From the NCBI GenBank assembly GCA_905178155.1, contig CAJINV010000004.1, positions 11,205,655 through 11,269,654 on the forward strand: a stretch of DNA of 64,000 nt, given 5' to 3'. The position numbers and the translations under genes were made by a program. The first letter of the stretch is position 1, and each line of letters begins with the position of its first letter. This DNA comes from Amoebophrya sp. A120 (taxonomy: Eukaryota; Protista; Dinoflagellata). Positions 2,410 through 64,000 of this stretch are shown piece after piece. Under the pieces are notes generated by a model. The model was not told the origin of the DNA, searched no databases, and was given only the letters and a program-made list of their open reading frames with translations.

Positions 2410-5400
2410 TTACCGCATTCTGACCGGTTCGGGGCACAGGCGGAGCGGCGACATGGGGCGGAGTGGCTGCAAAGTCATTTGCATGGCGGCAATCGGGGAT
2501 GGCGACCGGTACTGGCCTCGCCAGGGATTGGGGTTCGCCGCGGACAACCGTCCGTTCATAGCAGCACCGGATGAGGCAGCTGGTCCTGTCGCTCCTGGTT
2601 GGTGGTTTCCGCCAGCTCCAGCATTGCGGCCGCCCCCCGACCGTCCGCGCGCAGGGGGCTCTTGCTGCTGCGGTTCGCCGAGTTTCTGCGGCTGCAGGTT
2701 GGTGCGGAGCGTGGCGCCGGGCGTGCTTGATGTGTTCGGAAACATCATAGTACTGGGGTGCACAAACCCACCTGGTGCTCCCGGGTTCTTGCTTGTCGTC
2801 GCGGTGTGATCTTTGAAAAAAGTCGTGGGCGACAGGTAGCCCGGCGTGAAGCTGTGTTGCTGGTTGTACATCAACCGGGACTTGCTCGCCGTCGGCTGCG
2901 CGGCAACGGAGCTCGCTACAGACGCCGGCTGAGTAGTATTGGCGGGAACAGCTCCGAAATTGGTCGATGTTGCCATTTTCGCAGCAACTTCTGTCCCCGC
3001 TGCGGCCGGAGCTGTAGCAGAGTTTGTTGTACCTCGTGCGCCATGCTGAGCTGTCATGTTGTTGTCAACTTCTACACTTTGTTCTGCAATGAGCAGCTTC
3101 CCAGTGAACTCTGCCGCCAAAATTGCGGTCGGCCCGAAGCTGGTGGCCGCGTGGTTGTCATCGAGGTTTGTTTGGTTTTCCAAGCTCGATAAAACCTCCA
3201 CTTTGTACTGCTTCTTTTCCGTCACGGTCGCAGTTTTGTCCATAACGCGCGTTGCTGCGTGCACCGAATCCGTGACGGTATCGTCCGTGGAAATCACCTC
3301 CGAGACTTGAAAAACTAAGTGCTGCGCGACTGCATATGCGATGGAAAATCTTCAACACTCAGAATGAATCTGAACTTCGAATTGCATTACGCCCGCCGCC
3401 AGCCGGGGGCTGCGCCAAAACATTCGAAAAAGTAAAAGTCATACAAGCTGTATGAAATGCAAAACTGGACCTAGTAGTTTTCATCCTATGCGCGATGTGC
3501 AATTGCGGGCGTTGAAGTATAGATTTTCAGATTTCATCTAGGATACCGAAAGCGCTTCCCTCAGACCCTGCGCATGTAGGTCCTCAATCCAGGCAGAAAC
3601 GATGCGCGCCGCGGTGTCCGTGCTCCAAATAATCATGCTGATGTGCTCGGCTTCCTGTACTATTCTGTTCTTGCTGGTCGTCAGTCGGGGCAGCGAAACA
3701 CGCACCTCGATCTCGCGGGCTCCCTGCTTGGGATGAATGGTAGGTGGGGGTTGATGTTGCTGTTGTTGCGAGGCCGCAGGTTGTGGAGCAGAAACAGGTG
3801 GCGGCACGGCCACTCCACTACTTGAAGATGCAGCGGCTTGCTGTTGGTCAGCAATCGTTGTACTAGTGCCCGCGGCCAGAAGTGACGACGAAGCGTTAGT
3901 GGCACCACCCGGTACTACTACTTGCTGGGCCGCTGTCCTCTGCGACTGAAGCTGTTGTAGACCAGTACCAGAAGCTCCCCCGCGACCGACGAGCGCTCTG
4001 GCTTGCAATCCCATGTGCGGCGACGCGAGGTGGAGCTTCTGCGGTGACGGGCGCAGGTAGCTGTTCGAGTTTTTTCTGCTAAGTTGGTTCCTTTGCGTAT
4101 GATGTTGCGACTGCAGATAATAGTTCGTTGTACCAGACGATGAAGCGGCAGCGGCTTCCCTGGGGGGTGCTGCTCCTCCTGCACCGGTCGTGTAGTTACT
4201 CTCTTCGGGCAAAACCGTCGTGGTTGAAGTCGCGGGCAGCTGTTCTACTTGATGTTGAGGCCCTGCTCCGCTAGCCGCACCACGGTACCCAGCGACGGGC
4301 GTCTGCCAGGAATATGAACTGCAAAAGTATCGTACTCGTATAAATGCATTACAAATTTCCTCAGCTTGAGAGAGAAAATTTGTAATGCGGATTTGCCTTA
4401 AAATAGAAATTTGTAATGCATGATTGCAATACGAGTACGATACTTTTGCACAGGATAAGGAAAGCAGAGAGACCAGGTTCCCGCCGGAGGTCCCGGATCT
4501 ATGGATTGCAAATATGTCTGGGTCTGGAAGGTTGGAACTTGTAATGCTAGCTTTCCATACCTAGGAAATATGTATTGCGCAACCAACAAAAGGCGCAGCA
4601 TCTTTTGTCAATGCAAACATGCAGTCTCTCATGCAGATTGCTTATGAGAGAAAGCGTTCTGGAAAGTTGTCATGCTAGATTGCATTCGGAACTGTTTTCA
4701 TCTTGCACATTTTAGCATCACAACTTTCCAGACCCAGACAACATTTTTACATTTGATAGGATCGGGTCCTGGACAACGACGGAGCGCGGATCTGGAAGCC
4801 GGAGTTTACCGCTCGGCCCCGGGTCGCATAGTTCGGCCCTCCTGTACTACTACCGGATGTTTGTGCTGCATTCATCGTGCTGATCCCTCCGCCTGACAGC
4901 AACGCTGGCTGCCCTAAGGTGGTCGCCACTGACTGCATGGAGAACGGACGACGCTGCTGAGACGAGAGACTCCTTATCTGGCTGGTGTTCGAGTTCGTAA
5001 GAGGAGCTGCCCCAGAACTAGTAGTGCCTCCTCCAGCTCCTGCCTGCTGCATCCCTCCCGTACCAGAGCGCGACGACGAGGCCGTGCTAGTACCGGACCA
5101 GAAGCCGGCAGCGGCCGCTGCGGTAGAACTAGGTGGTCCTGGCTCCGCGGCTTTGATGTTGCTCCCCCGCTGCAGATGCTGGTTCGCCGACGTCTCTGTA
5201 TACTTCTCTCCTACCGTGTTGATGTTGTGGGCTGCACTGCTAGAGCTGCTACTACTAGAAGCGGAGCCGGACCCATGATTTGGTGCTGCTGTTATTTTCG
5301 CGGTGCTGGAGCCTGTGGTCGCGCCAGCGCCACCGCCAGACGAAGATTGAGATTGATGATGGTACTGGGCCTTCCCGGTAACTTTATCTTCAATGATTAG

Positions 5401-7258
5401 TTGCGTCACATCCATTCCGCTGGGTGAAGAGGACACTTGTTGCGGCTTGTTGTTTGCCACCCCACCTGCAGCCGCAGCTCCCAGAAGTTGAGCAGCTGAC
5501 GCATCGTTGGCATTATTGATTTCCCGACCCGCGGCAACAACGTTTTGTTGCGAAGCCGCAGGCGCCGGCGCCCGCACAGGGACCGAAGCGGGTTGCTGGT
5601 GCGACAGTTGTACCATTGACATAGTGTGGTCCCCAGCTGCCCCACCGGCCGTACTGGTACTAAAGGTCTGACCCGGAGCAGGTGGTCCTTGTGACTGTAT
5701 TTGCGATTGCGACAAGGGTGGCGCGGGTTCCACCTGCAAGAGGCCGCTCCGGGTGCTCGGGAGCCGCTCGGCCGGGCTTTTGTCGTGCATGCTCTTCTTG
5801 ATTCCACCCTGAGTTGTCGTTGCGGAATGGTTGGGTGGAGCGACAACAGTTGTCGCACTCGTACTGGACGTCGTGCCTTGTAGGCCGGAGTTCCCCCGGG
5901 TGGGCACCCGAACGCTGGTAGACGTGAAGGTTGGTGCGTCGACCGCGGCCCCGGACCCTCCTGCTCCGCGCGGAGCCTAGTAAATAAGCAGGATTAGAAA
6001 TTGAATCAATTGTGGATCAGACGTAGAAGTCCAGGGCACACTTCTGCAGGCCAGGGCACGAGAGTGCTATCCGAGTTTGTGCTCTGACCTTGAAACACAG
6101 AAAAACCCGCACAGCATCATCTTAGGCGGGGGCTTTGCAGAACTATGATCCCAGGTCTCGAAGCGGCGAAAATCCTAGGGGCGCACTTCTTTATCTCCCC
6201 GACGTCGGATGATTTTGCGCGAGGTCTTCAGACCTGTCGCCGGCCAGAGCACAAATCCGACGTGGGGGCCTTGCCGAAATGTGCTCCCAGGATTTCCGGC
6301 AAACCTTGGGAACGCATTTCCGAAAGGCTAGAGTGTGGCAGCTGCTGGGCGACCCCTTATATTGAAGGCGCGTTGCTTTTAAAGACCTGGCGCTGAACAC
6401 GAATTGCTTGCAATATACTAGCACAACAAACAAAATACTTACTATGCCAAGGCATTGCAAGTAATTCGCTTCCAATAGCAGGGCACTTCAAAGCAACTCG
6501 CTTTCAACGAGCAGGAGCGCAAGGCCCACTCCTGGCAGCCCGGCAGGAGAAGCGCGGCAGCCCCGCCGAAGACGGCTGCCCATTCTCCCCCAAGCTCGCG
6601 CGCTGGCTGCTTCCCAGCCACATTTTTCATGGCCTTCGGCCATTCCAAGCGACTGCGAGAGTTTGCAAGCTAAACCCCCCTCGCGGTTTGTTTCCATTTT
6701 TTTCAAACCTAAGCTTTCGGGAACAAGGGTAGGAACTAATTTCTGTAAGCCTTAAAAATAAGCAGGATTAGAAATTGAATGAATTGTGGATCAGACGTAG
6801 AAGTCCAAATCATCTTCACGATATGGTCGTTGCTTCTGTTTGTGATCTCAATGACCTTAGTATGCAAGGGAACGAAGGTCCACCGTTACTTATATTGTAC
6901 TTGTACGGAATTATGTGCTAGAACCATAAAAATCTGAAGTAACCGTATTTATTAACTCGAGTTTTTCTACCGTAGATCCCAGACCGGTAGGAGCTCCTAG
7001 TGATTTTCGCTCTGGCTGGTCCTGGTGCAGCAATTGCGTCTTTCCGATCGAAGCGGGCTCTCTACTCTTCACGGCCGACATACAGGCTTTGTAGTTTCCA
7101 AACTGCGCCGGGGGCGGTGCGGCGGGCGAGATAAAGCCCAAAGTCGGCATCGGGGAGAAGGAGCTGAGTGGATAGTTTTCTTCTACAACTCGAACTCCTG
7201 CTACTCCAGGGCATCGATCTAGGATTTTTGCTATTCCACGCGCCCTAAGGTAGTTCAT
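2410..7258 (-). CDS. Multi-exon low-complexity (Ser/Gly/Ala/Gln-rich) hypothetical protein
   Basis: Exon 7258-6971 joins 5976 in frame through a GT-AG intron (6970-5977). Removing the elements at 4500-4758 and 4313-4457 joins ORFs 4747-5907 and 3538-4212 in frame (...RTRSGTSGGNLVSLLSWQTPVAG...). The link to ORF 2410-3297 is unresolved. Confidence 0.55.
4313..4457. mobile_element. Introner-like TIR element, family B (145 bp), TSD aggaa
   Basis: tatgaactgcaaaagtatcgtactcgta...tacgagtacgatacttttgcacaggata; aggaa at 4308-4312 and 4458-4462; excision restores frame. Confidence 0.92.
4500..4758. mobile_element. Introner-like TIR element, family A (259 bp), TSD ggatc
   Basis: TIR core tgtctgggtctggaa / ttccagacccagaca; TAT...ATA ends; ggatc on both sides; excision restores frame. 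Confidence 0.92.
5982..6807. repeat. 52-bp direct repeat (5982-6033, 6756-6807) flanking a ~720-bp insert inside a canonical intron
   Basis: aaataagcaggattagaaattgaat(c/g)aattgtggatcagacgtagaagtcca present twice with one mismatch. Confidence 0.85.
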
Positions 7259-7539
7259 CTAGTTCATCTTAAAAGAGCACCGAGAACCGAAGAAGAAGCT
7301 CAAGTTCTGGATACGTTGCTTGCTGGCTACAATTAACAATGAATATCGCTGAAGTGTTCTCTCACCGTTTTGCCCAGTTCGACGGTAAAGGAGAGGGCGA
7401 GCGGAGTCGCTGTCCAAATGGACTCTGAAACCTCGGGGACGGAATCACTTGTGGCATCGGCGAGCGCGTGCGAAACCTGGTGTGACAATGCATCCTTATT
7501 ACAACTCGGAGGTACTAATACTATGGTCATTTTACAAAC

Positions 7540-9603
7540 TCAAGCGTTGTTAATAGGGATGATAGCTCGGCCCTGGGCAGCGTCCTCAACATTTTGATTT
7601 CTCACCAGCAGCACCACAATAAATAAGTACTGACTATACATGCTGCTCGAGCTCGAGCCGCCGGCGGTGGTTGCCGCTGCGGCGCCGGTTGTAGATTGGC
7701 TCGCGCCTCCGGCGCCGCGAAGCATGTTCGCTTTCCGTATTTCCGGGCGGAACAGAAAATGCCCTGCGGAGCTGCTGGTTTGAAACGCGTCTAAGTGATC
7801 CGCGTTTCGGACCCGGGGGTAGTTTGCCTGCTTCCGCTCAATCGTGTCCAATTCCGACACCGTCAGTTGTCTCGGCACAGCCTCCCCCGCGAGCCAGGGG
7901 TGCTTCAAGGAGTCGTGCACGGAGATGCGTTTGCTGGGCTCGATCTTCATCAGTTGCACGATAAAGTCGAGGCACATCGGCGACAGCTTTTGGTCAATCT
8001 GGTTCTTCTATCCTGTGCAAAAGTATCGCACTCGTACTGATTGCAGATATGCATAACAAATCCAACTCTCTACCTGAAATAGCATGACAAATTGCATTTT
8101 TGTTTTTGGGAAAATTTGTATATGCAATTTATACTAGTACGATACTTTTGCAGCGGATATCTTCCGCCGAAACAAACCCTCCAGATCGCCCCGGCGAAAA
8201 TACTGCCAGTACTCCTGGTCGCGCTGGGCGCTGTCGGCCGAGAGGAACAGGGGCAAAGCGGAGAGGAGGTAGAAAGTACCTGATTTTATTTCGCACAGTT
8301 CTGTATTGTTCAATTACTTCGTCATCTATCGACGAAAGACTCCCTACTAGATGAGTAGATGCCATCAAAGTAGATAAAACGGAAATCGAAATTCTTATGG
8401 AAACAGCAGTCCAATAAACAAGAGGAATCTTCTTGTACTCCAGCCTAGGCACCAGGAATCCACTTTCGTCGCGAGATAGGGTCTTTTCTCCGACAGTTCC
8501 GGCGGCCGGAAGCTTTTGCCGACCAAGCCCTTGTAGGGTACAGTTTTTTCCTCCTGTGTCTTTTCGTCAAGCGCAAATTCCACCGCTTGTCCGGGGTCGC
8601 AAATCTTTATGCGGACCGTGTCACCGTACACAAAGATGAGCAAGTTCTCCAGCGAAACGTCCTGCATGGCCATTTTCTGGTCGTGCAGCGCCGCAAGGCC
8701 CAATGCAGCCTGCCGCATCAGAAACCTTGGGAGGAAGGTGTTACATCACGGTGTTTCCTTTTTGTCCAAGAAATCACATGATGATGATTCCAGTTTTCCG
8801 TCGTTCGCCACTAGCGAATTCGATTGTGTGCAACATGAACATCGATGGAACATTAATATGATATCAATATCAATATCCACCTCCTACCGGCATTGTTGCT
8901 CTGGGAAACCATCGGGCTTGGTCTTCAGCGCTTCCAGCAAATCTCCTTTTGCAGCTAGCTCGAACACAATGTAATGACAATACTCGTCCTCGAAGGCCTC
9001 GTGGACCTAAATTTCCATTTGAAGGTGCGCTTTTCAGTTTTGAGTATCTTCGCAGGCCCGGGTTCTATTGACTGCCCAGGTCGTGGTCGTTATTATCCAT
9101 CGTGCTAATGGTGATGCAAGTGCAAAACAAGTACACTTACATACATAAGTAACTTCAATACTCACCTCAACGATGTGCTCGTGCCCGCGCATCTGCTTTT
9201 CAAAGCGTATTTCTGACAGCGGCACCTCGCAGAAGTCCAAACTGGGTGGCGACTTGCTGAGCTCGCTTTTGTGCAGGACCTTGACGGCAAAGGAGCGGCC
9301 AGTTGTGCAACCTGCTTTGATATCATGGGTCGGTTGCACATGGTTTTAGCATATTGATCTTCATCTTGTATTCATCTGTGCAAAACAGTGACAGTCAGTA
9401 GACCTGACAGCACTTCATCATTCATCATAAATTGTCAATCAGTACGCACCTTTCGCTTCATAAACGCCTCCGAACAGCGCGGCTTGCAGCGACCGAATGA
9501 GCTGATAAGTTTCTTTGGCGCCATAGATGTCAGGGCCGACCACTTTTTGGTCCTGCTTCGGCGGTGCATTTTGCTGACTTGTTTCGGGCGGTCCGGCTGC
9601 CAT
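7540..9603 (-). CDS. Ser/Thr protein kinase (CAMK-like fold) with atypical motifs
   Basis: Joined exons give LQAALFGGVY, FAVKVL, HEHIVEVHEAFEDE..IVFELAAKGDL, MQDVSLEN, KICDPGQ, FRPPE, KVDSWCLG, KRISVHDSLKHPW. Four GT-AG introns plus the element at 8009-8159. The 3' end is uncertain. Confidence 0.9.
8009..8159. mobile_element. Introner-like TIR element, family B (151 bp), TSD tcttc, opposite orientation to the other B copies
   Basis: tatcctgtgcaaaagtatcg...cgatacttttgcagcggata; excision gives ...FRRKNQIDQKLSPMC in frame. Confidence 0.92.
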
Positions 9604-10871
9604 GATGCTGCGCGGCGAGGACAAGTCCGTGGGAAGATGCGGTGGCGGCCAGAGAACGGAATCGGTGGCAGTTGACGAGGGTGTGGTACTTCTATCGGGC
9701 GCCTAATTGTGCTTTAGAATAAAAACAGGAGGTCGTTGGATTATTAAACGAAACGAAAATTGTCTGCCGGCGAAATGGAAACACACAGGGAAGGACACGC
9801 CACAAACTCAAGAAACGGAAACAAGTTACTTATAACGGAATCGGAAAAATGTCTTTAATTGCAATTTGTTCGGAAAGGCACACAGACGTGGTCAGGGGAT
9901 GCTCTGTCGCTTGCAATACCTCGGCAAATACTTTAACGTATACGCATGTAGTTGTGCGTCCCGCCCTACAACGCCTCAGTGTCTTCCCGCCCCGCCTTAA
10001 AAAACAATCAACTCTCTCATAATTCTGCTTCTTTTTGCTCTCGAATAAAGAAGGTGTAGTGCGTGGTCCAGTCATCTCATGATCTTCACACTACGAAAAT
10101 CGTGCTCTCTGAGGCAATTATCCACGTTCAAAGCCATTAATTAAACCCATGGCCCAGTTTGAAAAAGACAGTACCCTACCACCCAGCAGGGCGGGATTGT
10201 GCGCAGAATCAGCGAGCTGGTGCTGCTGCTCACACAAGTGTGAAAACGTCGAGCGCGGTTACTTAAACCAGATCATGCGTTGAAGTCGATGCCACGCTTT
10301 GACTGATTCGCAACACAACTTGTTGTTGATTTTTTTCAAGCAGTCCTGATCCTGAATACTATCTGCATACATGCTACTGCTTACATTAATACATTTCAAT
10401 TTGTTGCAGGACATTCTCGCGCTGCACATGTGTCCTCTGCTGCAACTTCCAACACAGCGGCACGATATTACGTAGAGGCAGGTCGTGAGATATGCTACTA
10501 GGGGTAGTCGTAGTAGGCGGACTGTACCTAAATACAACGATTGCTTACGCCGATACTAGATTGCTAAATACAAAAAGGACGAACCTCCCTTCAAAAAGGA
10601 AGTACCACTTGTTCGGAATTTCACTTTTTCATCAGAGCCAAAATTTAGAATTATCTTCCAAAAACTATGCATATGGAGATCAGCCTTTTGTTGATATGAC
10701 ACAGTCACAGTGAGAAAAATGATAACTTATGTAAAATGGTACTCAGTGCCTCGTGCAGGTGCAGCGCCAGCGTTCAATACATAGTGTGAGGACGTCGTTG
10801 TGTCATTTGTTTGACATAAGTATGCCGATGCGCCAGCAGCTTGCCCCCTTCCATTCTTTCTCTTTCACTGC

Positions 10872-11972
10872 TCACAAAACGCCCTTTTTGACCAGGTCCT
10901 TCTGCTTTGCGTTCAGTATCCAGGAAAAAAAGATTGTAGGCGTAACTTCTTTGGAGGAACAGCATTACAAATCTGTCTCGCATGAGAGCAAAATAATAAA
11001 CCTGTCATGCATAGATTGTACGTGAAAACGCGCTTGAATGGACGTTGCAATGCATGCTCTGCATGACAGCCGCAATTATTTTGCAGGTTTTGCATCACAA
11101 ATTTACACTAACAATGTTGTTTATTGGATATTCAGCTTCTTCACCCCATTAATCTTGTCCAGTTTGTTCACCTTTCCCGCCTTCAGTGCGGGTTTCAGCA
11201 ACTTGAAAACCTTTGCGGACAGCGAGAACCGTATCCCCCAGAAAAAGACCGACAGGTCATATTTGTAGTGCAAAAATAAATACACAGGAAAATCTGTCAT
11301 GGGCGAGGCCATAACATCCTGTTTAGGGCATGCAATACAGATTTTTTTGTCTATTTATTTTTGCATTACAAATATGACCTGTCGGTCTTTTTCTGGGGGA
11401 TAAACCGGCTGTTCCCCGTGTCCACAATGGCGCGCAATTCCCCTATGGGATTCTCAAACGTTACATTCTCAACTGTTACATCAATTTGTCATGCAAAGCT
11501 ACCTCAAGCCGCCAGATGCTCAAGCTGCTTCGCATGACAAATCTGCGAGGGGCTAGACAGCACCTAAATCTGTGCGGAACTTGTAATGCAAAAGGCGCAA
11601 ACTTCGCCCTTTCACTTTTGCCGTTCTTGCATTGCAAGTTCATGTAACAGTTGAGAATGTAACGTTTGAGAACGCCATATCCCCCACCTTCAGCTTCTGC
11701 TTGGTGGCCTTGCAGGCACCGGCCGAGCCCGACTACACTTCCTCGAACTCCAGCGACTTTTTCACGAAGCACTCGGGGTGCTGGTACGCCGTGACCAAGC
11801 GGCCCGCGACGAACGCCGGAACCCCGACCCGCATTGTGCCCTTCTTGATCGGCTTCCCGCAGCAGCGGCACGTGGACCGGTTGGTTTTTGCCTCTTCGAC
11901 CAAAACGGTCGGCCGGGCCTTCACCTCGGCGGAATAGATCACGTCGCCGTTGCCGTCAACGGGGAGAGACAT
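10872..11972 (-). CDS. PARP-type zinc-finger protein (one intact and one degenerate finger) with an internal in-frame TAG
   Basis: VEEAKTNRSTCRCCGKPIKKGTMRVG...HPECF, then EEV*SGSAGACKATKQKLKVGELRAIV...INGVKKLNAKQKDLVKKGVL* after removing three elements; TAG at 11733-11735. Confidence 0.75.
10917..11130. mobile_element. Introner-like TIR element, family F (214 bp), TSD ttcag
   Basis: tatccagg...ttattggata with imperfect TIR; ttcag on both sides; excision gives KKLNAKQKDL. Confidence 0.85.
11232..11402. mobile_element. Introner-like TIR element, family E (171 bp, long near-perfect hairpin), TSD aaccg
   Basis: tatcccccagaaaaagaccgacaggtcatatttgta...tacaaatatgacctgtcggtctttttctgggggata; excision gives NSRFSLSAK. 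Confidence 0.95.
11444..11679. mobile_element. Introner-like TIR element, family C (236 bp), TSD tcccc
   Basis: TIR built from tandem tctcaa-nn-gttacat units; excision gives KVGELRAIV. Confidence 0.93.
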
Positions 11973-13013: not shown

Positions 13014-13330
13014 ACAGATTGTTTTTCAGCTTCAAAATTTCAGTGTGGCAACACACCGCTATACTTTTCAAAAATAGAAAAATAAAAATTAGTGTGCACT
13101 CAACACGCTAGTCTTTCGTTTCAGAATTTGTATACATGATCATGGTCGACTTTAGAGCTATGTAGTTTTGGATGCTGTTTCGAACCGTAAAATTGTACAT
13201 GTGTATTTGAGATCGATGCTGTTACTATGAGAGACCTTTCATGCACATGCTGTGAAAGGACGCACACTGGAATAACGTCGGTAGAAAACAGATTGTTTTT
13301 CAGCTTCACAAGTTCAGTGTGGCAACACAC
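13014..13330. repeat. 43-bp direct repeat (13014-13056, 13288-13330)
   Basis: acagattgtttttcagcttca(a/c)aa(t/g)ttcagtgtggcaacacac twice. Confidence 0.8.
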
Positions 13331-39989: not shown

Positions 39990-42900
39990 CTAAACCGCCA
40001 CTACCTGCTGGAAGAGAAATCCGACAACGAGATAGCCCAATCCCAAGGTGAACACCAGCCGGCAGTCGGCGAAGTACCGGGGCCACTGGATACAGGGGTG
40101 CTGGTTGTGTTCCTGGGAGTCGTAGTTCTGCTGATACTGCGACATCTCCTCGCCGTAAAACAAGGCGTCCAGCAGAAAGGAAATCTGCCGCAGCACCCAC
40201 AGCAGCGGCCACCATTCGTAGCTGGTGCACGGTTTTTGCCACTGGTTCCCCTCGAACTGCACAAATTCGAAGCCCCGGTTGTGCGTTCGCCGGACCAGGG
40301 GGTTTTTCTGCTCCCGGTGCTGCTCCTCGTAAACCGCGAGCTGGTGGTGCTGCCGCCGAAGCAGGTCGTCCGGACTCAAACACCCATACCCCGGGGAAGA
40401 GTAGTAGGCGTGGTGTTGGCCCGCAAGGACAGAATTCCTCATGTAGTAGTTATCGCGATCAACATCTCCAGACGTGGTTCGTTCCCTGTTGGGCTGCAAC
40501 TGGGAAAAGTCGAGGGGCGAGACCGTGTTGGGCGCAGGGTAGTAGCTGACTTCATCCTGCTCGCCGTCGTGGTCCTGGGTGGAGGCGTTCAGGTCTAGCC
40601 GTCTCCGCAAGGAGGAGTGTCGGTGCGGGTTCCCCGCGTGGAAGTTGTGGTCGGAAAGCAGACTCGAGTCGAGATTGTCCTGCAGGATCCGCTCCCGTTC
40701 CAGCCTGGCAGAATTATAGTCCTCTCCCGTCAAGTCTGCATGTGGTGCGCCGTGGATCATCCCATTGTAATTGCCAGAGTTAGAAGTAAATTCCATCGCG
40801 TCACGACGCATCTTCTCGGACCGGAGGAACTGCTCGTATGGCGTTCTCAACTGTTACATTTTCAACTGTTACATGAATTTGTCATGCAGAACTACCATCA
40901 AGATCCACACGAGAAAGCTGCTTCGCATGACAAATTTGCGAAGAGCTAAACAGCGCCTAAATCTGTGCAGAACTTGTAATGCTAGAGGTGCAACCTCCCC
41001 CCTTTCACTTTTGCCATTCTTGCATCGCAAATTTATGTAACAATTGAGAATGTAACAGTTGAGAACGCCATAGCTCGGTGACGGAAAGTTCGTTTTGAAT
41101 CTTGTGCTTATGCCTTGCAGAAGTATCGTACTCGTATAAATGCAAATGCAAGTCTCGCATCACAAATCTTGTTCCCAAAGCAAATCAGCATTAGAAATTC
41201 TATTTCCCACGCTGAGGAAATTTTGAATGCAATCATACGAATACGATACTTTTGCACAGGATAGTACTTCTTCCGTAATGACTGCGACGGTGAACCCGCG
41301 AAGTTATTTGTCGATGACGAAGGATTGATATTGTCAAGAGATACTTGATCTCGAGCGGAGATAGTACCTCCTCCAGTCGAGGAGCCTGGTACAACAAGTT
41401 GACCTCCGCCACCGCCGAGCAACGCGCCGACCCCACCTGTCATCTTGTCCAACATCCCAGAGGGTTGCAACACTGGTTCCTCTGGGAGAGAATCGTTGAA
41501 GAGGGGCGACCAAGCAACCGTCTCGCGACGCAGGCGGTACTTTAACCGCGGAAAGGCGTCGTATAGTTTCGGCGGGACAAGATGCAAATTGTCCAACTTT
41601 TCCTTTGCTGGCCGAGATTTGCTCGCCGGGTTTTTCGTGTGTGCCACGGCTGCTGCTGGTCCGCCCTTGCTAGAAGATCTGGCGGGCTGCTGTGCCGTAG
41701 CTCCGCCTCCGGGCGCTCTTGATAAGGACGTCGAATCAAGCGTGGTTTGAGGTGGATCAACGGTACCAGCCTGGTGATTGTTGTTTTCCCTACTATTGGA
41801 CCGCGCTTGCAGTTCCGCTGCAGCTTGCTCTGGTTTCTGTTTCGACGTACCCACGTGGCCTACAGTACTGTGTCCTCGGTCGTCCCCACCCGCGAAGGAG
41901 AACAGTTTTTTCCACCAAGAAAACCCGCTGCCAGTCCCTTGCACCGCGTAGAGGTTCGGATCCTCCGGCCCCGCCAACACGGAAGCGCCGCCACCGACGA
42001 CCGCGCGCACGGCTCGCGGCTGCGCATCACCCGCTGCTGTTTGTGCAAATGAAGGCGTTGAAGACATGACTCCTACTCCATGATTATTAACACTAGTACC
42101 AGGCAAGTGGTGCACTGCTCGCGCGGGCGACAGTAAGGGACTCGGTTTGCGCGTGCTGTGGTACAGCTTGGACCGCATGTCCAAGGGCGGAAAGAGCGCC
42201 TATCAAATGCAAAAATGTCTGGGTCTGGAAGACTCTAAACTTGTGATGCTGTCTCTGGATTCGACAAAATTTTGTATTGCGTGACCAGTAAGAGGAGTAG
42301 CTTTTGTGCTCCGCGGAGATGGCATTTGTCATGCGGAATAGGCATGAGGAAGCGCTCTAAAAATCTGTGATGCTAGGCCATGCATCGCAGGCATTATGGA
42401 TCATGCAAAATATGCATGACAAATCTTGCAATCTCCCAGACCCAGACATTTTTGCATTTGATAGCGCCGCTTGTCGCTCCATTTCGAAGTCCTGCAGCAA
42501 GTCCTGTTCGCGAAGTTGTGCCTGCTGTGCCGGGGGTGACCGCCCGGAACCGCTGGCTAGCATGCCGGTTTGGTTCATCTGGGCGTTTTTCGTGCTCAGG
42601 ATTTTGGCCGCACCCCCCGCATTCGCGGTGTTGTAGACCGAGGAGCACTGCTTGAAGTTGCTCACCGGACTGCTGACCGGGTCGTGCTGCTTTCTCCGAC
42701 CACCGGGCGATGAAGAAGCCGCCGCCTGCCTCCTCTGCGCGTTCCGGATGTGTTGGTCAGGCTGCACGACGCCTCCGGCGGGAGCCTTCCCCTTTGCTCC
42801 TCCTGCAGCCCTTACGTTTATTTCTGCCTGCGTTTTCCTTTCCATTTCGGTGGACATGAATCCGCAGACCTTCTCCAGCATCGCGACGGTCGGCTTCGCG

Positions 42901-45900
42901 CATTCAATGATGTCCCCTGTGAACACCCCGGTGTGGTCCTCGAAAAGGTTGGCCAGCGCGTGCTGGTTCGCCGTCGCGAAGTGCTGCCCACTGTAGACGC
43001 TCGACAGCATCCCCGGTTGCGAGTCCGCGAAGGATCGACCGAAATTGGAATCGGTGGAATTGGACGAGAGTGGTAGAGACAGAGCGGACGCTGATAAAAC
43101 GGATGTAGCTCCGGCACTTGAAAATCCTCCTGCTAGCAAATAACCACTGCCAGGAGCAGTGGAAGATGACACCACTCCCATCCGCATCTGCAAGAGCGAA
43201 TCGTTGTCTGCCGTGGCGGCCGAGTCCAGCACCATGCGCATGCTGTGCAAAACCCCGTCGCGCTGACTGCTCCACAACGCCTGCAGCAGTCCCGGGTCGC
43301 CGAAGCAGCTCAAGGTGGCGAAGGACAAAGACAGAAAATCGTTGTAGATGGCCAGGTGGTCCGCGCCGGAAAGCCGGTGCTGCCGGTAGCTGTTGGCGAG
43401 GCTGCTCGGCAGGCGCAAGGCCGCACTACGGGTCGATGTGGGTTGTGCGGCTCCCGGTCTACTGCTCCTTGACGAGGACGCACTTGAAGACGACCCGGCT
43501 GCAACCAGCGCCGCCACGGACGCGAGGCCAGACGTCTTGTGGTAGCCGGTCGCGATGTGCTCCCGGCACTCTTGAAAGACCGGGTGCCCGAGAAACTGCC
43601 GCAACAGCGCGTACAAGCTCCAATGCCGTGTGACGTAGTCCCGGTAGCCTTCGCTGAAGCCCACATTGCCGAACTCCCGGTCCCCCCCGGCACCCAGCCG
43701 CGAGTCGTCGTGGAGACCCGGGCCGTACACGAAAAACTGCGCGGATGGGCCGTACAGGGCGCGGTCGAAGAATCTCTGCGTCGGAGAGGACGAAGATGCT
43801 GTCGCGCTGCCTCTAGTCGACGTTCCACCCCCTGCAGCAGATGAACCAACACCAGTCGCTGTCCCCCTAGCTCTAGAATTATTTCCCCCACCGAAGACGA
43901 ACGTGACCGGGTAAAACAGCGTGTCCACGACGGAGGCAAGCATCGAAGTCGGGCCGCGCGGCGGCGCACCAGGGGTCGAGCTATCAAACAGAAAAAAGCT
44001 GGCAGGGCATATTTGTAAATGCAAAAATACATACACAAAAAAATCTGTCATGGGTGGCCCCGTAGCATGCTGTTTCGGATATGCAATAGAATACAGATCT
44101 TTTTGTGTATTTATCTTTGCATTACAAATGTGACCTGCCAGTTTTTTTCTGTGTGATACGAGCTACTGCTCGAGGAGGACATATTGGGCTGTAGGATTGT
44201 TCCAGCGGCGGTTGATGAACCACTCCCTCCCGTCATCATCATGTTGGTCCTAGTTGACCTCAGACCGTGGTAGTCCGTGAACAAATTTGCCACTTCGTTC
44301 TTCGCGAAAAAGTCTAAATTGTCGAGAAACTCCGACCTGCTGATGCCCATCCAGGCGTTCAAATTTGGCAGCAGCGCGTCAACGGAGTTTTTGCTGTTCT
44401 TTCCTCGGCTGGAGGTTGCCTGCACCACGTACCGGTCGTTCGCGGACCGGAAGTGCGTGACGGGCTCGGGCTCGAGGCCAATCGTGTGTTCCAGTTGCTT
44501 TTCGTTCAGCAGCTTTCGAAACCCCTTCCCGCCCATGCCGTTGTAGGCCGTGACGTAGTAGGGATAGATCAAGCTGGCCAACCAGGGTTGACAGAGCAGC
44601 AGCCAGGTGCGCATCGCCTGGAGGAAGCAGTCCAGGTGCAGGTCCGGGTGCGCGAGGATTTTCCGCAGCACCCGCTCCGCCGTAAACACGAAGTCGTGCA
44701 GGCTGTTCAACGGCTCGGAACAAAGCAAGTGCAGCAACGCGACGCGCATCGCCGGCAGCATCTGGGCACTGTTTAACAGTAGGTCCCCCATCGGGTCCTC
44801 GCGGGCGATTTTAGGCAGCAGAGCCGCGCTACTATTGTTTGGGATCGGCGGTGGTCCACCCGCAGGCAGCGCAAGAGAGGAATCAGTCGCGGCGGTTGAA
44901 GCGAACCACATATCGAAAATCAGGCAGTGCAACAAGCGCTGTCCCGCACTCAGCCGGCCCCGCAACTTCGCACCGGCGCGCTCCTGCGCAGTCGTCGCAC
45001 CACCCGTGGCGGAAGACGCGGTGGGCACCTGAAGTTTTGGGTTATCTACTTTAGTGGAACACGACAGTGAATGAAGCTAATTGCTGCACTTACAACTCGT
45101 GGAGGACAAGTCAGAGTCTGTGTTTACAACCTATTCAAGGACCGTTCCTAAGATCTCCGCACTTCTGATTCAAGTGCGTTCAACACACAAACACATCTTC
45201 ATCAGAAACAACTCAGTGATGTTACCAATCCTCCGTTTGAGCGACTCCCGAAACCAGACGACGCAGTGCCCGCACGAAAGATGTACAGGTACTCAATGAG
45301 CAGCTTTTCGTAGGTTTTCGACTCTCGGCGGTTTGTAAAAACGAACTCCGAGGACCCAAACTTCGCTTTGCTGCCCTGCTTCTGCAGATTCTGCAGGGTG
45401 CGGTTGCCGCCGGCGAAAAACGGCGTGAGGAAATTGCTGCCCAGGTTGTGGATGGCGCCTGGGATTATTTTTTGTTCGTGCTGCTCGACGAGATCAGTGC
45501 ATCATCTACGAACACTCCACCTAGGTAGTAAGAAACAAGCGGTCTTTGCACGCGACTTTTCTCATAGTCATATGTAAAAATGCGCCTGCATTTATTAATA
45601 GAAACAGTAACAAACAAATCATGAAGCCAGTACGGCCCATCTGCTTATTCTTGTCTGCTGCGGTGCTTGTTGTTTCGCCCAAATGCGCCCTTCTGGTGAT
45701 TTCCAGGGCTTCCATCATCCGTGCGAGGTGCTCGGTGCGCAGGACGATCACGTTCACGAAGGTGATCAAGTAGTAGAGCAACGGATCGGGGACCACCAGG
45801 TTAACCTGGTGCGCTTGCTTCGCGGAGTGGATGGTGTTGGTCGTGGAGCCGCTATTCTGGTCCGCCGGCGTTTCCGAAAACCGCAGAGCGCCGCCGCATT

Positions 45901-47897: not shown

Positions 47898-50352
47898 CTA
47901 TCGCATCAGCAGCGGTACCGTGTCCCGGATGGCGCGGTAGACCTTCACCGCAGTCTCCGTCACGGTGCGCATGGGGCACTTGCCCTTCTTCTTTGCTTTC
48001 CGCGCTAGCGCCTCGCCCTTGCCGTGCTTCTCCGGGTCGTACGCAAAGGGGTTCGGCTTGAACATGAAAGCCGGCATTTTGGAGCCGCCAGTGCTGGACC
48101 CCGCGGCTTTTTTCTTCTTTTTCTTTCCTGATTTGGTTGTCGTTTTCGACGAGTTTGCATTGGTTTCGGGGTTTTTCGATGTGCTGTTACTGCCCCTAGT
48201 CGTGCTCCTATACTTTTCATCATCTGCGTCGTTCTCCGCCGGCTTTGCTCCACCTGCGGCGCCGACTATTTCTTCGCCGCCAAGCTCTGCGGTCCGATTC
48301 ATACCTCGTTTGATCTGCAGGATGCGCTCCCTGCAGTCGGTAGTCGCGTTTGATGGCAAATTTTCGCACTGGTCATCGGCTTCGTCGTCAAGGTGAAGAT
48401 TCTCTGGAGCAGGCACTGTAAAACCAGAGGAGGATGTTGTCCCGGTGCTCTCACCGTCTTCTCCACCACGCCCATGATCCGAAGCCGTTACATTCTCCTG
48501 GTTCCAGGGCAACTCTTTGTTGTAAATCCGGCCTAAAATCGGGTACTTGGACAGGTAGGTCTCCTCAAAGTTATCTCGACCCTCAAACAGCTCCATATCC
48601 GTATCCAATGCAAAAATGTCTGGGTCTGGAAGAATGCAAGATTTGTCATGCTTATTTCTCATGACCCATGATGCCTGTAATGCTTCACCTAGCATCGCAG
48701 ACTTTTAGAAGGCTCCCTGATGCACCTTCCGCATGAGAAATGCCCTGTCCGTGTAGCAAAAACTGTGCCCCTCTTGCTGGTCATGCAATACAAATTTTTT
48801 TAGAGTCCAAAAACAGCATGACAAGTTGCAATCTTCCAGACCCAGACATTTTTGCAGTTGATAATCCGTGAGCCCGAGCAAGTCCCGGTCCAAGTCAGAC
48901 TCCTCAAGCGAGCCTAGCGCCAGCGCCCGCGTCGCTGGTAGGTGTTGATTGGTCATTGTGTGTGTTTTGCGTTTGAAAAATAAGAAAATTCGTTTCTTTT
49001 TCAAGCAGTGAGAGTGACCTTTCAAAAAAGTCCGGAAAATGAGTTACTAGTGCTCACTGCGTTCTTTTTCACACAAAAACAATCCGTCCTACCTTCCCGT
49101 CCGTGAAACAGCGCATAGCCTCCCTCACCCTGTTTGTAAAAGTGCGGCGAGGCCGTGACATTGAAGACATAGCCGAAATACGCGAGGTAAAGCAGATTCT
49201 GGTCCTCGAGCAGGTTTGGTAGGTCGCGAAATTCGTTCCAGGTGTAGTACTTCCAGCGAAATACCTCATTTTCCTCCAAATCAGCGTCCTGGATGAACCG
49301 CACGTAATGAAAATAACTCAGCAGCGCAAACAGCGCCGCAAGAAAAAGTCGGTCGGCCGTCAGTATCACATGAGAAACATCCTCAGCTGTATTTTTCCTC
49401 ATAGGGCAAAAAAAAAAAAAATTCCAGCATGTTTGTAGATCAGAACGCAAGGCGTGCAACATCGCCCAAGCGGAAAGCAATTCACGGCAAGTTCGGAAAT
49501 TATGCACCTGCTGTTTATTTGTGAGTGATGGGATTGCTTTGAAAAAGAGGACTCATCGCGACGGTATGGCGCTGAAAAGCATGGCCAAGAAGTGCCTCAG
49601 TTGGCCAAAATTGTGACTGGGACCGTCGAGGCTGTAATGCGGAGAAGGCAAAAAAGATGCTTTTTTTGCAAAAAAAAGCTGTTTTTTTGATCAAAATCCT
49701 TGGGATTTTGACGTCCGAAACCTTGCTATGAGTACTCATTTTTTTTTGCTATGAGTACAAATAACTTCCCCGACGGAGTTCTGGATCAGAACTCTCTCAC
49801 AAAGCAGCTCATTTTGATGCTATAGGTCATAGCTTTTCCTAGGGTCAGGAAGGAGAGTGAGTACAAATACGGTAGCAGTGGGAGAGGCTTTTTTTGCATT
49901 CAATTCCCGATGCTATGGTGGCCCCACAGGGTCACTTTTTTGCTCAAACGCGACGGCGTGCTGTTTTTCTTTTTGCACTGCCGCCGTGATTGGCTTCAAT
50001 TGGTCTGCTTTTCGTATCCCAAACACCATCGCAATGCAGCCTGATAGATGGAGGCTGTACCCTATCCCGGAGAACCCCCTGAAGGGTGGGCCTGGTTCTG
50101 ATACATAAAAACCTGCGCAAATTTTTTTTTTTTTGGCCCTATGAGGAAAAATACAGCTGAGGACTTTTCTAATTTGATAGTCAGGTGAGGAAAATTAACC
50201 ATGATAGGACTACTTTGCGGCTTTTCCGTAGCCGAATTTTCCTGTTGCGTAGTTTCCGTCATGTAGTTGTGGCCTTCAAGAACGTCCACGTCGTCGCTTT
50301 TCCTATTGTACGACCCCTGGTCTGTAGCAGAAATGGACGCTATGATAGCCAT
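47898..50352 (-). CDS. Membrane-anchored cytochrome b5-like heme/steroid-binding protein (MAPR family)
   Basis: TM helix, then YYTWNEF..LYLAYFGYVFNVTASPHFYKQGEGGYALFHGREATRALALGSL..DLLGLTDMEL..YLSKYPILGRI; GT-AG intron 48935-49092 plus two elements; start codon uncertain. Confidence 0.88.
48602..48863. mobile_element. Introner-like TIR element, family A (262 bp), TSD atccg
   Basis: Family A TIR; excision gives LLGLTDMELFEG. Confidence 0.94.
49364..50179. mobile_element. Large introner-like TIR element (816 bp), TSD gtcag
   Basis: ~55-bp TIR tatca.at.agaaa..tcctcagctgtatttttcctcatagggc(A)n; excision joins NFPHLT to ADRLFLAA. Confidence 0.9.
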
Positions 50353-51856: not shown

Positions 51857-53300
51857 TTAATGGTGATGATGACTGCATTCCTCGGTCACGGTCGTGCCCA
51901 TGAAGGGCAGGTTGCCGGTCCAGCGGGCCTTCCGCCAGTTTTGCGGCTCGCCCTTGGCGGAGCCCGACATGGTTTTCGTGACTGGGTCCACAACCAATTC
52001 GTAGTTGCCGTACTTCTCCCAAAAGATGCTCAACTTGTTGTCGCCCTCCAGCTCCCAGTGCGCGTGCGCGGGGAACTGGTGGCACTGGAAGTGGTTGTAG
52101 CCGTCGCACTTGAAGACGATGGGAAACTTATGGATTGCAAAAGTGTCTGGGTCTGGAAGTGTCATGCTGCTTTTGCATGACACAGAAGGTCTAGCATGGA
52201 AGCTTTAGCATCACACGTTTCGAGAAGCTTCCGCAATGCGGAATCCGCATGACAAATGCCCCATTTTGGTGACAGAAAGTGGGCAGCTTTTGCTGCCTAT
52301 GCATGACAGATTTTTCTGTGTTGTGAAATGCGCATCACAAGTTGCATCCTTCCAGACCCAGACATATTTGCAATCCATAAAACTCGCCCTTCTCCCACTG
52401 CAGCATCCACTCACTGCCCGCGCCCTCGCCGAACAGGGCGAGTTCCACGGGGGAGAACGGCCGTTTGAACTGCGCCTTGCGCCAGTCCTGCTCTTTGGTA
52501 TGGAACTCTCAAGCGTTACATTCTCAACTGTTACATGATTTGTCATGCAAATTTAAGTACCACCAAGATCGCCGCGATCAAGCTGCTTCGCATGGCAAAT
52601 CTACGAAGGGCTAAACAGCATCGAAATCTGTGCCAAATCTGTAATGCAAAAGGCGCAATCTTCGCCCTTTCTTTTCACTTTTGCCGTTCTTGCATGACAA
52701 ATTTATGTAACAGTTGAGAATGTAACATTTGAGAACGCCATACTTGGTCTGCGTCGGGTTGGACACGCACCCCCCGGCCATGGTTTTGTGCGCCGGGTCG
52801 AACTCGAGCTCGTACTGCCCAAACTTCTTGCCCCAGTCAATCTTCACCAGGTATTTCTTTTTCTCCTCGTGGCTGTGTCCGCCACTGCACTTGTGGTCGT
52901 CCCCGCCATGATCGTGGCCCCCGTGTCCGTGGTCGTGGTGCCCCGCAGAGGCACTGCCGCCGTCGTGGTCGTGGCCGCAACCGCCCTCGTGATCGTGCCC
53001 GCAACCGCCCATGTCGTGGTCGCCGTCGTGGTCCTTGTGACCACCGTGGTCGTGTCCATTGGCGTGGCTACTAGTATGGTCGTGATGATCGTGGCCGCCC
53101 GCCTCCTGGTTCTGCACGACCAACTCCCACTTAGACGCCGCTTGGAACTTCGGCGCAAAGAAGTGGCCGCCCGGGCGGAAGCACACCTCGAAGGAACCGC
53201 CAGACCAGGCAAAGTCGTACCAGCCCAGCAGGGACGCGGAGGAATCCTGGGTCGCGTGCGAACACGCGTGGTCGTGGTGGTCGTGGTCGTGCTTGGCCAT
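51857..53300 (-). CDS. His-rich hypothetical protein with two internal Trp-rich repeats
   Basis: After removing two elements, WYDFAWSGGSFEVCF...IDWGKKFGQYEL..DP..KTM.G...DWRKA and WMLQWEKGEFPIVF...IFWEKYGNYEL..DP..KTM.G...NWRKA align; H/D/G tracts. Confidence 0.85.
52129..52379. mobile_element. Introner-like TIR element, family A (251 bp), TSD aaact
   Basis: tatggattgcaaa..tgtctgggtctggaa at both ends; excision gives KGEFPIVFK. Confidence 0.95.
52499..52742. mobile_element. Introner-like TIR element, family C (244 bp), TSD tttgg/cttgg
   Basis: Family C TIR; excision gives PTQTKEQDWRK. Confidence 0.93.
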
Positions 53301-62452: not shown

Positions 62453-64000
62453 CTAGCAATTATCCGCAGGATATTTGAGCTCCTGTGCCGAAAAGAGGTC
62501 GCGGTCAATCTGATCATCCTCATCGTCCTCTGCAGCACTCGTGGAGCCGGAGGACCGGGCGTCAGTATCTCTTCTTCTCTTCCTTGCGGCTGTTGTTGAT
62601 ATGGTATGTTCATGTTGGTTTTTACCTTCGAACCCCCAGCACCTTGTGGTCGCCATCTCCTCTACTATCACCACCTTGTCCCCTGCTTGTAGTCTCAAGT
62701 CCGTGCAGGCGACCTTGAATGCGCATTTTCGCAAAGCCTCCACGGTCGGTATGACCCGACTGAGAATCCCTGCCGCGCCGGGAAACACCGGAAGCTCTTC
62801 CACGTTCTGCAAGGTGAGGAAATCGACGCAGTCCTTGTTCTCTGTGCTGTCGAAGTCGATGTTATTTGTCGTCCCGTTTCGCCCATTTTTCTGCATCCCC
62901 CTCCAAGACACTGTAGTTTGCTCACACGAACCGGCGAGCACACGCAAGTCCAGAACTTTTTTCCTTTGTGGTATGATCTTATTGTTTTTCGTGCCCCCGC
63001 CACCGCCGGCCGAAGCTCCAGCAGAGGAGGAGAACGCAGTTGTCTTCACGGTTTGAACCCCTCCTTCGAACCCACAGGGAGAGGAAATGACGCTGGGAAA
63101 GTCGAAGAGGACAAAGACCAAAACGACCACGAAGGGCACGTAGAGAAAGCACAACACCGGGTACAGCACCGCGCCGGTGTGCTCGTAATCGGCAACGACT
63201 TTCCGGAGAAATTCCGGGACGTCTACACCGAGCAAATCCGGCACGGCAGTCTTGAGGATTACCTCGACCAAGTCGTCGGGTAGCATTTTCCCCACCTTCG
63301 GATTCGCCCGGGCGGAGCTTGTCGCGGTGTAGTAGCTTGGGAAGAGAAAACCATCCCTGATCTCCGCAAATCTGGGCACGTAGACCTCTCTTCTTTCCTC
63401 GGCGTCGACAGTCACGAGAAACACGTGGAAAGCGAGGAAGGAAAGAATCAGAAGTTGGCTGAACAGGTGTCTGCATCGCTGCAACGCCGTCCTTCGTGTG
63501 CTGCAAACCGAGAACCGCAGCGGCACCACCAAGATCAGTGGCGGAACCATTATCGCCGTGAAAAAGACCCCGAGCGCGTAGCAATACACCGTTAGAGCGC
63601 CGAGTAGCAGCGCGAAGGCGAGCACGCTCGCGCACTGCAACTCCTGGCCGCCGAAGCCCTTCTGCTGAATCTGCAGGGCGGTGAGAACGCGGCGGACGCA
63701 GTATCAGGATGCAAGGTGCCCGATGCCCTAAATAGATGAGGAAGTACAAGTATTTGCATGACAAAACGTGATCCAAGAAGAAAAGCGTCGGACTCGTTAT
63801 AATTTTCGTAGTGGTCTAGTCTGTATTTCTATTGTCGAAGACTTGGAAGTTTTACAATGAAGACATTTCAAAAATTCAGGACGAGGCGAGGCGCTTTATT
63901 TTTGCCGTTTGATACGCAAAGGAGCCACACGAAGTAAAGGAGTTTCAGCTGGCCGGACCGGAGATCGAAGAGACTTTCGTCGAAATTTTTCGCCGCGCCG
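62453..64000 (-). CDS. GPAA1: GPI transamidase subunit Gaa1-like, 3' part (runs off the window) with a C-terminal extension
   Basis: LQCASVLAFALLLGALTVYCYALGVFFTAIMVP and YEHTGAVLYPVLCFLYVP resemble the last TM helices of GPAA1 (recalled, not searched). Confidence 0.65.
63702..63914. mobile_element. Degenerate introner-like element (213 bp), TSD cgcag/cgcaa
   Basis: tatca...tgata ends, internal gcatgacaaaa, weak TIR; excision gives YFVWLLCVRRVLTAL. Confidence 0.7.

What the first reader, a model, noticed from the sequence alone, without database searches (positions are those of the whole stretch)
4313..63914. 23 TAT...ATA TIR elements with 5-bp TSDs behave as precisely excised non-canonical introns
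Seen: 23 elements of about 8 families with different TIRs share TAT...ATA ends (one CAT variant) and a 5-bp TSD of arbitrary sequence. Deleting the element plus one TSD copy restores the frame in all 23, including conserved motifs (SRAP EVNKLVGNSKN, kinesin KVDVRVRMLEIYNE, MAPR GLTDMEL, kinase subdomain X-XI). Sliding the junction through the TSD by hand gives GT-AG only at 23264-23518 and GC-AG only at 42201-42463. The same genes also carry ordinary GT-AG introns. Known: invasive non-canonical introners with inverted and direct repeats were described in Amoebophrya, with the mechanism unresolved as far as I know. Inference: a second excision system that reads TIR pairing plus the direct repeat rather than splice dinucleotides.
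Basis: partly seen in the sequence, partly recalled or inferred. Interest (0 to 1): 0.92.

Follow-up and report, generated by a model that had tools for sequence, protein, structure and literature searches.

The report
Known Amoebophrya transposon-introns, cut out precisely
These are the already described jumping-DNA introns of the marine parasite Amoebophrya: they lack normal splice signals yet are missing exactly from likely RNA assemblies, and they are likely cut out by an altered splicing machine that reads the element's first letters and measures from its hairpin.

Summary
Observation confirmed: all 23 TAT...ATA elements with 5-bp target-site repeats are present, plus a 24th (3335-3545). 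Four of the 23 repeats are imperfect. Two host genes match annotated Amoebophrya sp. A120 proteins exactly. Farhat 2021 described these A120 introners (TAT+7 nt+AAA ends, RNA-supported) and already proposed an alternative splicing route, so the phenomenon is known. Likely-RNA contigs lack element plus 5 nt at 5 of 5 elements seen on both sides; public annotation agrees for 4 more. Added here, using 274-317 further copies: both orientations occur; repeat identity is not needed (58 of 317 imperfect); no G.U bias (121 vs 127); no GT-AG enrichment; the upstream repeat copy stays exonic through at least base 4 (one element); the first T looks guarded at the transcript's 5' end only (1 vs 10 changes, suggestive); a shared internal motif TGTVATGC. 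So 'reads pairing plus direct repeat' is only partly right; a 5' (N)UA signal plus a hairpin ruler fits better. Machinery unresolved: altered spliceosome about 0.5, endonuclease-ligase about 0.3. This scan noted similar introns before in other genomes.

The parts
3335..3545 (-).
   Evidence: 5' junction edge in X3 and X6 keeps the upstream copy; removed in P0022
4313..4457 (-). Element, group B, 145 nt, kinase gene
   Evidence: removed in P0022
4500..4758 (-). Element, group A, reverse orientation, kinase gene
   Evidence: removed in P0022
8009..8159 (-). Element, group B, in kinase domain
   Evidence: removed in P0022
10917..11130 (-). Element with decayed TIR, zf-PARP gene
   Evidence: joint 10911>11131 in X3 and X6, 0 in X1; fold z 0.0
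11232..11402 (-). Element, group D, zf-PARP gene
   Evidence: joint 11226>11403
11444..11679 (-). Element, group C, zf-PARP gene
   Evidence: joint 11438>11680
16376..16534 (-). Element, group B, CAT variant at the transcript's 3' end, SRAP gene
   Evidence: X3 record 12 lengths; P0001 identical to the spliced product
16582..16836 (-). Element, group A, SRAP gene
   Evidence: X3 record 12
19650..19972 (-). Element, single; repeat differs at base 1; kinesin gene
   Evidence: removal inferred from frame
20055..20465 (-). Element, single, 411 nt, kinesin gene
   Evidence: removal inferred from frame
20936..21186 (-). Element, group A, kinesin gene
   Evidence: X3 record 14 starts at 21187; other side inferred
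23264..23518 (-). Element, group C-like; can slide to GT-AG; kinesin motor
   Evidence: removal inferred from frame
26144..26405 (-). Element, group A
   Evidence: inferred from frame
34836..35093 (-). Element, group A
   Evidence: inferred from frame
40837..41072 (-). Element, group C
   Evidence: inferred from frame
41109..41263 (-). Element, group B, reverse to 4313; repeat differs at base 3
   Evidence: inferred from frame
42201..42463 (-). Element, group A, reverse orientation; can slide to GC-AG
   Evidence: inferred from frame
43982..44158 (-). Element, group D
   Evidence: inferred from frame
48602..48863 (-). Element, group A
   Evidence: inferred from frame
49364..50179 (-). Element, single, 816 nt, no frame over 91 codons
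   Evidence: removal inferred from frame
52129..52379 (-). Element, group A
   Evidence: inferred from frame
52499..52742 (-). Element, group C; repeat differs at base 5
   Evidence: inferred from frame
63702..63914 (-). Element with weak TIR; repeat differs at base 1
   Evidence: read; inferred from frame
2410..9603 (-). Protein kinase host gene: 7 GT-AG introns and 4 elements
   Evidence: P0022
16075..17701 (-). SRAP host gene with 2 elements
   Evidence: P0001
10872..11972 (-). zf-PARP host gene with 3 elements downstream of an in-frame TAG (11733-11735)
22466..22791 (-). Ordinary GT-AG intron in the kinesin gene that also holds 4 elements
   Evidence: sequence; X3 record 14 ends at 22465

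Best explanation
These are the published Amoebophrya A120 introner elements: short TIR elements with TAT...ATA ends and a 5-bp target repeat that sit in exons in either orientation and are missing with exactly one repeat copy from likely RNA contigs; they are likely removed by an altered spliceosome that would read the element's first (N)UA as a relaxed donor and would place the second cut a fixed 4-5 nt past the terminal hairpin. Shown: anatomy, A120 identity, both orientations, exact removal at 5 elements in contigs and 4 more in annotation, no GT-AG need. Inferred: DNA-type transposition by an unfound enzyme that binds the shared TGTVATGC motif; a fixed register (upstream repeat copy exonic through base 4 or 5); the repeat is not read and only makes the fixed cut frame-neutral; the spliceosome as catalyst. 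Confidence in the identity is about 0.97; the number below is for the whole mechanism.
For: A120 proteins match 100%. The published end motif equals ours. Joints skipping element+5 in X3 and X6, 0 in X1. At 3335 both samples keep the upstream copy across its mismatch at base 4 and the annotated protein has the upstream residue. Orientation: group A 6 vs 2 in the window, 20 vs 17 and 8 vs 13 in further copies. 58 of 317 further copies have imperfect repeats, at all five positions; 15 of 17 with two mismatches keep a frame of 40 codons each side with +5, against 10 with +4 and 6 with +6. First-base changes: 1 at the 5' end vs 10 at the 3' end in 274 oriented copies, p 0.012; 0 vs 6 with confident ORF-based strands; four of the ten 3' changes cannot wobble-pair. 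Both 5' exceptions at bases 1-2 follow a G, giving GC and GT donors at the 4-base register. Nearly all spliceosome proteins are reported and U1 was not found. A tunicate spliceosome adapted to non-canonical introns (abstract).
Against: No branch-like YTRAY excess near the 3' end (45 vs 46 of 274) and no AG or donor-G excess (8 of 112 slide to GT/GC-AG), so nothing positive marks spliceosomal chemistry. Ordinary introns in the same genes keep strict GT-AG. The end asymmetry is post hoc and rests on 11 events; taking all unconfident ORF strand calls it is 3 vs 9. The register rests on one element whose far side was not listed. X3 and X6 are contigs whose RNA status is the tool's guess. 15 of 24 elements have only frame evidence. 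No transposase was found.
Confidence: 0.5

Rival explanations
1. A separate endonuclease-plus-ligase pathway (tRNA- or Euglena-like) makes staggered cuts at the base of the terminal hairpin, 0-1 nt before it and 4-5 nt after it, and joins the exons without a lariat.
For: No branch or AG signal. 20 of 23 folded elements form strong hairpins (z -4.7 to -17; the three weaker-than-chance or near-chance cases aside, one search lists 3335, 10917, 34836 and 63702 near 0, so 19 of 23 strictly). Works in both orientations. Euglena has a similar staggered code and circular products. An mRNA with a stop upstream of three junctions is the deepest contig in X3, a weak hint of no junction-linked decay.
Against: No G.U bias in stems, 121 vs 127. 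Weak-hairpin 10917 is removed as cleanly as its neighbours. The two 5' exceptions look like GT/GC donors. No such enzyme was searched for or found.
Confidence: 0.3
2. The machinery pairs the two direct-repeat copies and the TIR, and the junction can fall anywhere in the repeat.
For: 259 of 317 copies have perfect repeats. 14 of 30 scored mismatches are synonymous, somewhat above a one-free-copy expectation of about 35-40%. Base-5 mismatches are fewer (7) than base-1 (21), though codon phase confounds this.
Against: Repeat mismatch rate (4.4% per site) rises with TIR decay, as with age (rho 0.18, p 0.04). 3335 is removed with 3 of 5 matches. Mismatches occur at every position.
Confidence: 0.08
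3. The joined forms are reverse-transcriptase template switches across hairpins flanked by direct repeats, not true splicing.
For: Hairpin plus direct repeat is the known recipe (abstract; passage). All RNA evidence seen here is cDNA-derived or of unstated type. The Farhat main text has no hit for 'template'.
Against: Retention brings a stop within or just past the element in 23 of 24. Spliced SRAP is colinear with two orthologs. One contig of depth 1461 lacks three elements in a row, one with no predicted hairpin advantage.
Confidence: 0.05
4. The elements are removed from DNA in an expressed copy of the genome, like ciliate internal eliminated sequences.
For: Short TA-rich ends and one repeat left behind resemble such excision (recalled). 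Only one DNA-like run was laid, and not all its joints were counted.
Against: X1 shows 0 for the three joints, flat depth 42-46 and a 22-kb contig running through 3335-3545 without differences. End changes depend on transcript direction.
Confidence: 0.04

Closest known systems
Introner elements among non-canonical introns of Amoebophrya sp. A120 (Farhat et al. 2021, PMC7789003; 58 families in Gozashti et al. 2025, PMC12130899)
   Same: Same genome; IR starting TAT, seven variable bases, A run; direct repeats (5 bp in the Fig. S19 legend); lengths match listed families of about 149, 252-260, 305 and 811 nt; RNA-supported removal; alternative mechanism already proposed.
   Different: The paper gives repeats of 3-5 nt and calls splice positions variable or unknown. 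Here the repeat is 5 bp throughout (282 of 329 unbiased hits are TAT...ATA at length 5, and that pair is not among the 8 commonest end pairs at lengths 3, 4, 6 or 7). Orientation, register, end asymmetry and the internal motif were not in the text I read; figures were not visible.
Euglenid nonconventional introns (Nomura et al. 2025, PMC12501133; review PMC11282704)
   Same: TIR hairpin, repeat-like junctions, MITE-like origin, coexistence with GT-AG introns, cut sites offset from the stem with a longer 3' overhang.
   Different: Their code is N3-CDG...CHG-N5-6|R; ours is N0-1-TAT...ATA-N4-5 with no purine rule seen. Unrelated lineage; circles untested here.
Fritillaria non-canonical introns (Soo et al. 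2026, PMC13326754; review PMC11282704)
   Same: Transposon-derived introns removed by an adapted spliceosome.
   Different: They keep preferred ends (AG-AC, AG-AT) and retain U1; A120 ends are arbitrary and U1 was not found.
Micromonas and Aureococcus introners (as summarised in PMC11282704 and PMC7789003)
   Same: Non-autonomous TIR elements with target repeats that become introns.
   Different: They supply or co-opt canonical splice sites; here 22 of 24 cannot.

Membership tests
Amoebophrya A120 introner elements | In the A120 genome | tested here: met
   P0001 and P0022 are 100% identical to window exons and named A120; spliced SRAP equals P0001, 400 of 400
Amoebophrya A120 introner elements | IR starts TAT, 7 variable bases, then an A run | tested here: met
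   47 of 48 ends TAT; A at base 13 in 48 of 48, three elements having been found with a motif-guided scan; 260 of 282 unbiased copies have A13 at both ends
Amoebophrya A120 introner elements | Direct repeat of 3-5 nt at the junctions | tested here: met
   5 bp; perfect in 19 of 24
Amoebophrya A120 introner elements | Non-canonical ends, removed from RNA | tested here: met
   22 of 24 cannot be GT/GC-AG; removed at 5 of 5 elements seen on both sides in contigs guessed to be RNA
Amoebophrya A120 introner elements | Repeated families | tested here: met
   Groups of 8, 4, 4 and 2 in the window; 34,783 X1 contigs laid on a 20-kb stretch, depth concentrated on elements; 169 matches loci
Non-autonomous TIR DNA transposon (MITE) | TIRs, fixed-length target repeat, no coding frame, both orientations | tested here: met
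Non-autonomous TIR DNA transposon (MITE) | Autonomous partner with transposase and the same ends | tested here: inconclusive
   None among 6 elements of 457-1255 nt in 590 kb; 0 hits in viral contigs; no whole genome held
Canonical U2 introner (Micromonas type) | GT/GC-AG supplied or co-opted at insertion | tested here: not met
   2 of 24 in the window; 8 of 112 further copies
U12 minor intron | 5' site RTATCCTT (consensus recalled) and minor snRNAs | tested here: not met
   RTATCC in 4 of 24 at the 4-base register, full consensus in none (read); minor snRNAs reported absent
Euglenid nonconventional intron | N3-CDG...CHG-N5-6|R code | tested here: not met
   CDG at +4 to +6 in 1 of 24 (5-base register) or 0 of 24 (4-base register), read; code
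Euglenid nonconventional intron | Excised as full-length circles without lariat | not testable with these tools
   needs intron-product sequencing
DNA-eliminated internal sequence | Joined form present in DNA | tested here: inconclusive
   0 for three joints in X1, but one run, contigs only, incomplete counting

The most novel reading that the evidence does not exclude
Amoebophrya A120 runs a second, non-spliceosomal RNA excision system that recognises one transposon end code (5' UA, A at base 13, terminal hairpin, shared UGUVAUGC boxes) across all families and cuts at a fixed ruler equal to the 5-bp target repeat, so that tens of thousands of exonic insertions in either orientation are erased from mRNA without a trace: a host tolerance machine tuned to one transposase's geometry, convergent with Euglena.
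Probability: 0.3. Interest if true: 0.85.

Novelty: already known. Interest (0 to 1): 0.4.

Why it matters
The elements and the puzzle are in print, so this is not a discovery of a new system. It matters because the mechanism is still open in the papers found, and the rules seen here turn it into sharp tests: one 5-bp repeat, a fixed register readable from elements with unequal repeat copies, and a direction-dependent first base. If the rules hold genome-wide, the reported diversity of splice dinucleotides is only target sequence, A120 gene models can be placed exactly, and either a spliceosome that needs neither +1 G nor AG or a new RNA cutting-and-joining pathway is implied.

Tried and rejected
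No whole genome is held, so no snRNA, ligase or transposase search was possible; the records behind the loci are not held either. Candidate 10652-10818 was rejected: two contigs run through it. The 3993-5071 hit is chance. Nearby canonical sites: none keeps the frame within 20 nt for 6 of 24 elements, and where contigs exist the exact junction is used. G.U bias, branch motif and donor-G excess were all negative. Inferring the register from stop codons or AT drift in unequal repeats gave nothing. The NT-xx ends in Farhat Table S4 fit the 4-base register, but I do not count them, since aligner sliding towards GT-AG (recalled behaviour of BLAT) would give the same. Nine end pairs with no repeat left were set aside as possibly chimeric; 4 of the 5 scorable keep frame with +5. 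Rfam found 0 families in 1-40000. Whether the assembly is the same strain stayed open (no flank overlap; five unnamed singletons and two misses). Roy 2023 is not held.
Full report
Observation. A scan that demanded only an exact 5-bp direct repeat next to an inverted repeat found 16 hits, 15 of them TAT...ATA. A relaxed scan found 0, 0, 0, 2 and 0 weak hits in five shuffles. All host frames are on the minus strand. Removing element plus 5 nt leaves an open frame at all 24. This test is weak alone, because off-frame stops are rare in this GC-rich sequence: 21 of 24 have 30 codons on both sides with +5, against 16-18 with +3, +4, +6 or +7, although the +5 frames are much longer. Retention gives a stop within or just past the element in 23 of 24. 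Only 23264 slides to GT-AG and only 42201 to GC-AG. Five of 24 repeats are imperfect. All 24 lie in long frames that cover about 68% of the element-free window (p about 1e-4, rough proxy).

Identity. The first SRAP exon matches an annotated Amoebophrya sp. A120 protein at 100%, and my spliced translation equals it at 400 of 400 residues. It aligns with the A25 and MMETSP0795 orthologs without a gap across the 16376 junction and with a 2-residue insertion at the 16582 junction. An annotated A120 kinase joins 7 GT-AG introns and 4 elements, each removed with 5 extra nt. Farhat 2021 (PMC7789003; I read the abstract, sections 10-12, 16, 25, 32, 36, supplement parts 1 and 4 and searched legends and Table S4 rows; no figures) reports that A120 IR motifs start with TAT, seven variable bases and at least three A, that 29,850 such introns exist, that U1 was not found and that another splicing mechanism is suggested. 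Gozashti 2025 (PMC12130899; passages, supplement hits, and 21 of 58 A120 rows of one table) lists them mostly as TIR elements of matching lengths. The finding is therefore a member of a published class in the published genome.

RNA. Of 13 runs listed I laid four on 3250-23249. X3 and X6, contigs that the tool guesses are RNA, show joints skipping 219, 176 and 241 nt, which is element plus 5 for 10917, 11232 and 11444; X1, DNA-like, shows 0 but was not fully counted and may be the window's own source. An X3 contig's piece lengths show both SRAP elements removed with one repeat each. At 3335, where the copies differ at bases 2 and 4, both samples keep the upstream copy without a mismatch up to the element, so the first cut falls after base 4 or 5; the far side was not listed, and the annotated protein supplies it. 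X11 gave only TIR matches. So 5 elements are confirmed on both sides by contigs, 4 more by annotation, and 15 rest on frame.

More copies. Whether it is the same strain is open. An unbiased scan found 282 TAT...ATA among 329 hits at repeat length 5, against 1 hit in shuffled loci. Of 317 scored copies 259 have perfect repeats, 40 one mismatch and 18 two; 9 end pairs with no repeat were set aside. Both orientations occur in every group, which fits DNA transposition and not reverse splicing (inference). Stem mismatches that could wobble-pair are not favoured: 17 vs 20 in the window, 121 vs 127 in 135 further copies. There is no excess of GT-AG, donor G or YTRAY. The motif TGTVATGC occurs 64 times in 6.2 kb of elements and once in the other 57.8 kb, in 301 of 308 further copies, and equally on both strands (225 vs 226 of 274), so it is more likely a transposase site than a branch site (inference). 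No long element held a transposase-sized frame.

A direction-dependent end. In 274 of 367 copies that could be oriented, the first base differs from T once at the transcript's 5' end and ten times at the 3' end (p 0.012); base 2 gives 1 vs 3 and base 3 gives 4 vs 3. With strands called from frame length instead, confident cases give 0 vs 6, and all cases 3 vs 9. The window's CAT variant is also at the 3' end. Four of the ten 3' changes cannot pair, so terminal pairing is not the constraint. The two 5' exceptions at bases 1 and 2 both follow a G and read as GC and GT donors if the intron starts one base before the element. This is post hoc and small, so suggestive only. Repeat mismatches by position (21, 14, 11, 15, 7) are confounded by codon phase.

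Mechanism. Shown: exact removal without canonical ends, in both orientations, tolerant of decayed repeats and stems (10917 and 3335 fold no better than shuffles). Inferred: the upstream repeat copy stays in the exon, the first cut is at or one base before TAT, and the second is 4-5 nt past ATA, so that one repeat length is always lost. I put an altered spliceosome first (0.5), because the guarded bases look like donor +2/+3, the spliceosome is nearly complete without U1 and tunicates give a precedent (PMC13326754, abstract). A nuclease-ligase route is close behind (0.3), because no branch or AG signal exists and Euglena shows a similar staggered code (PMC12501133, abstract and discussion; PMC11282704, passages and section 6). 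Template switching (PMC2923612, abstract; PMC13149111, passages) and DNA excision are unlikely but not excluded.

Novelty. Already known. Searches found no paper that settles the mechanism, the register or the internal motif; PMC12005148 and PMC11453091 (passages) repeat the 2021 picture, and Roy 2023 was not held. Three earlier notes of this scan describe similar introns in other genomes; I did not check them. Interest 0.4: a published but open puzzle, with a few new and testable rules.

Noticed in passing
window 11733-11735 (minus): In-frame TAG in the middle of the zf-PARP gene; it aligns to Asp or Glu of 156-161 aa orthologs whose downstream half is conserved and is present unchanged in X1, X3 and X6 contigs. 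Recent nonsense change or readthrough; the other 14 frames checked end in TAA, TAG or TGA. Three elements downstream are still removed exactly.
   Followed up: partly
all elements: Shared motif TTGTNATGC about 32-45 nt inside 21 of 48 ends (0 of 5000 background windows exact), across groups with unrelated TIRs; points to one mobilising protein.
   Followed up: partly
TIR bases 4-8: Mismatches between arms cluster here (47 in the window) and differ between otherwise close copies (20936, 34836, 52129), while bases 1-3 and 13 are fixed.
   Followed up: no
window 4457-4500, 11402-11444, 16534-16582, 41072-41109: Four adjacent pairs are only 36-47 nt apart, suggesting clustered insertion.
   Followed up: no
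window about 5980-6035 and 6755-6810: A direct repeat of about 50 nt inside the 994-nt GT-AG kinase intron flanks a stretch with X1 depth 180-350 against 45: a different repeated insertion.
   Followed up: no
window about 12730-12810 and 15130-15215: A direct repeat of about 80 nt flanks a 2.4-kb stretch with a 319-codon frame (14667-13708) and about double X1 depth.
   Followed up: no
window 16577-16841: SRAP has a 2-residue insertion against both orthologs at the 16582 junction; possibly an old footprint.
   Followed up: no
run X11 on 4500-4560 and 16577-16611: A 2026 run with the same species label has no exon reads here but carries the group A TIR at 90-95% in a transcript, so the family may not be strain-specific.
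   Followed up: no
L067:6329-6608 and L034:8386-8713: An 8-bp repeat and a repeat displaced by 3 nt; both deviate from 5 by a whole codon.
   Followed up: no
window 10652-10818: TAT...ATA look-alike in the zf-PARP 3' region that is not removed in contigs; a natural negative control.
   Followed up: yes
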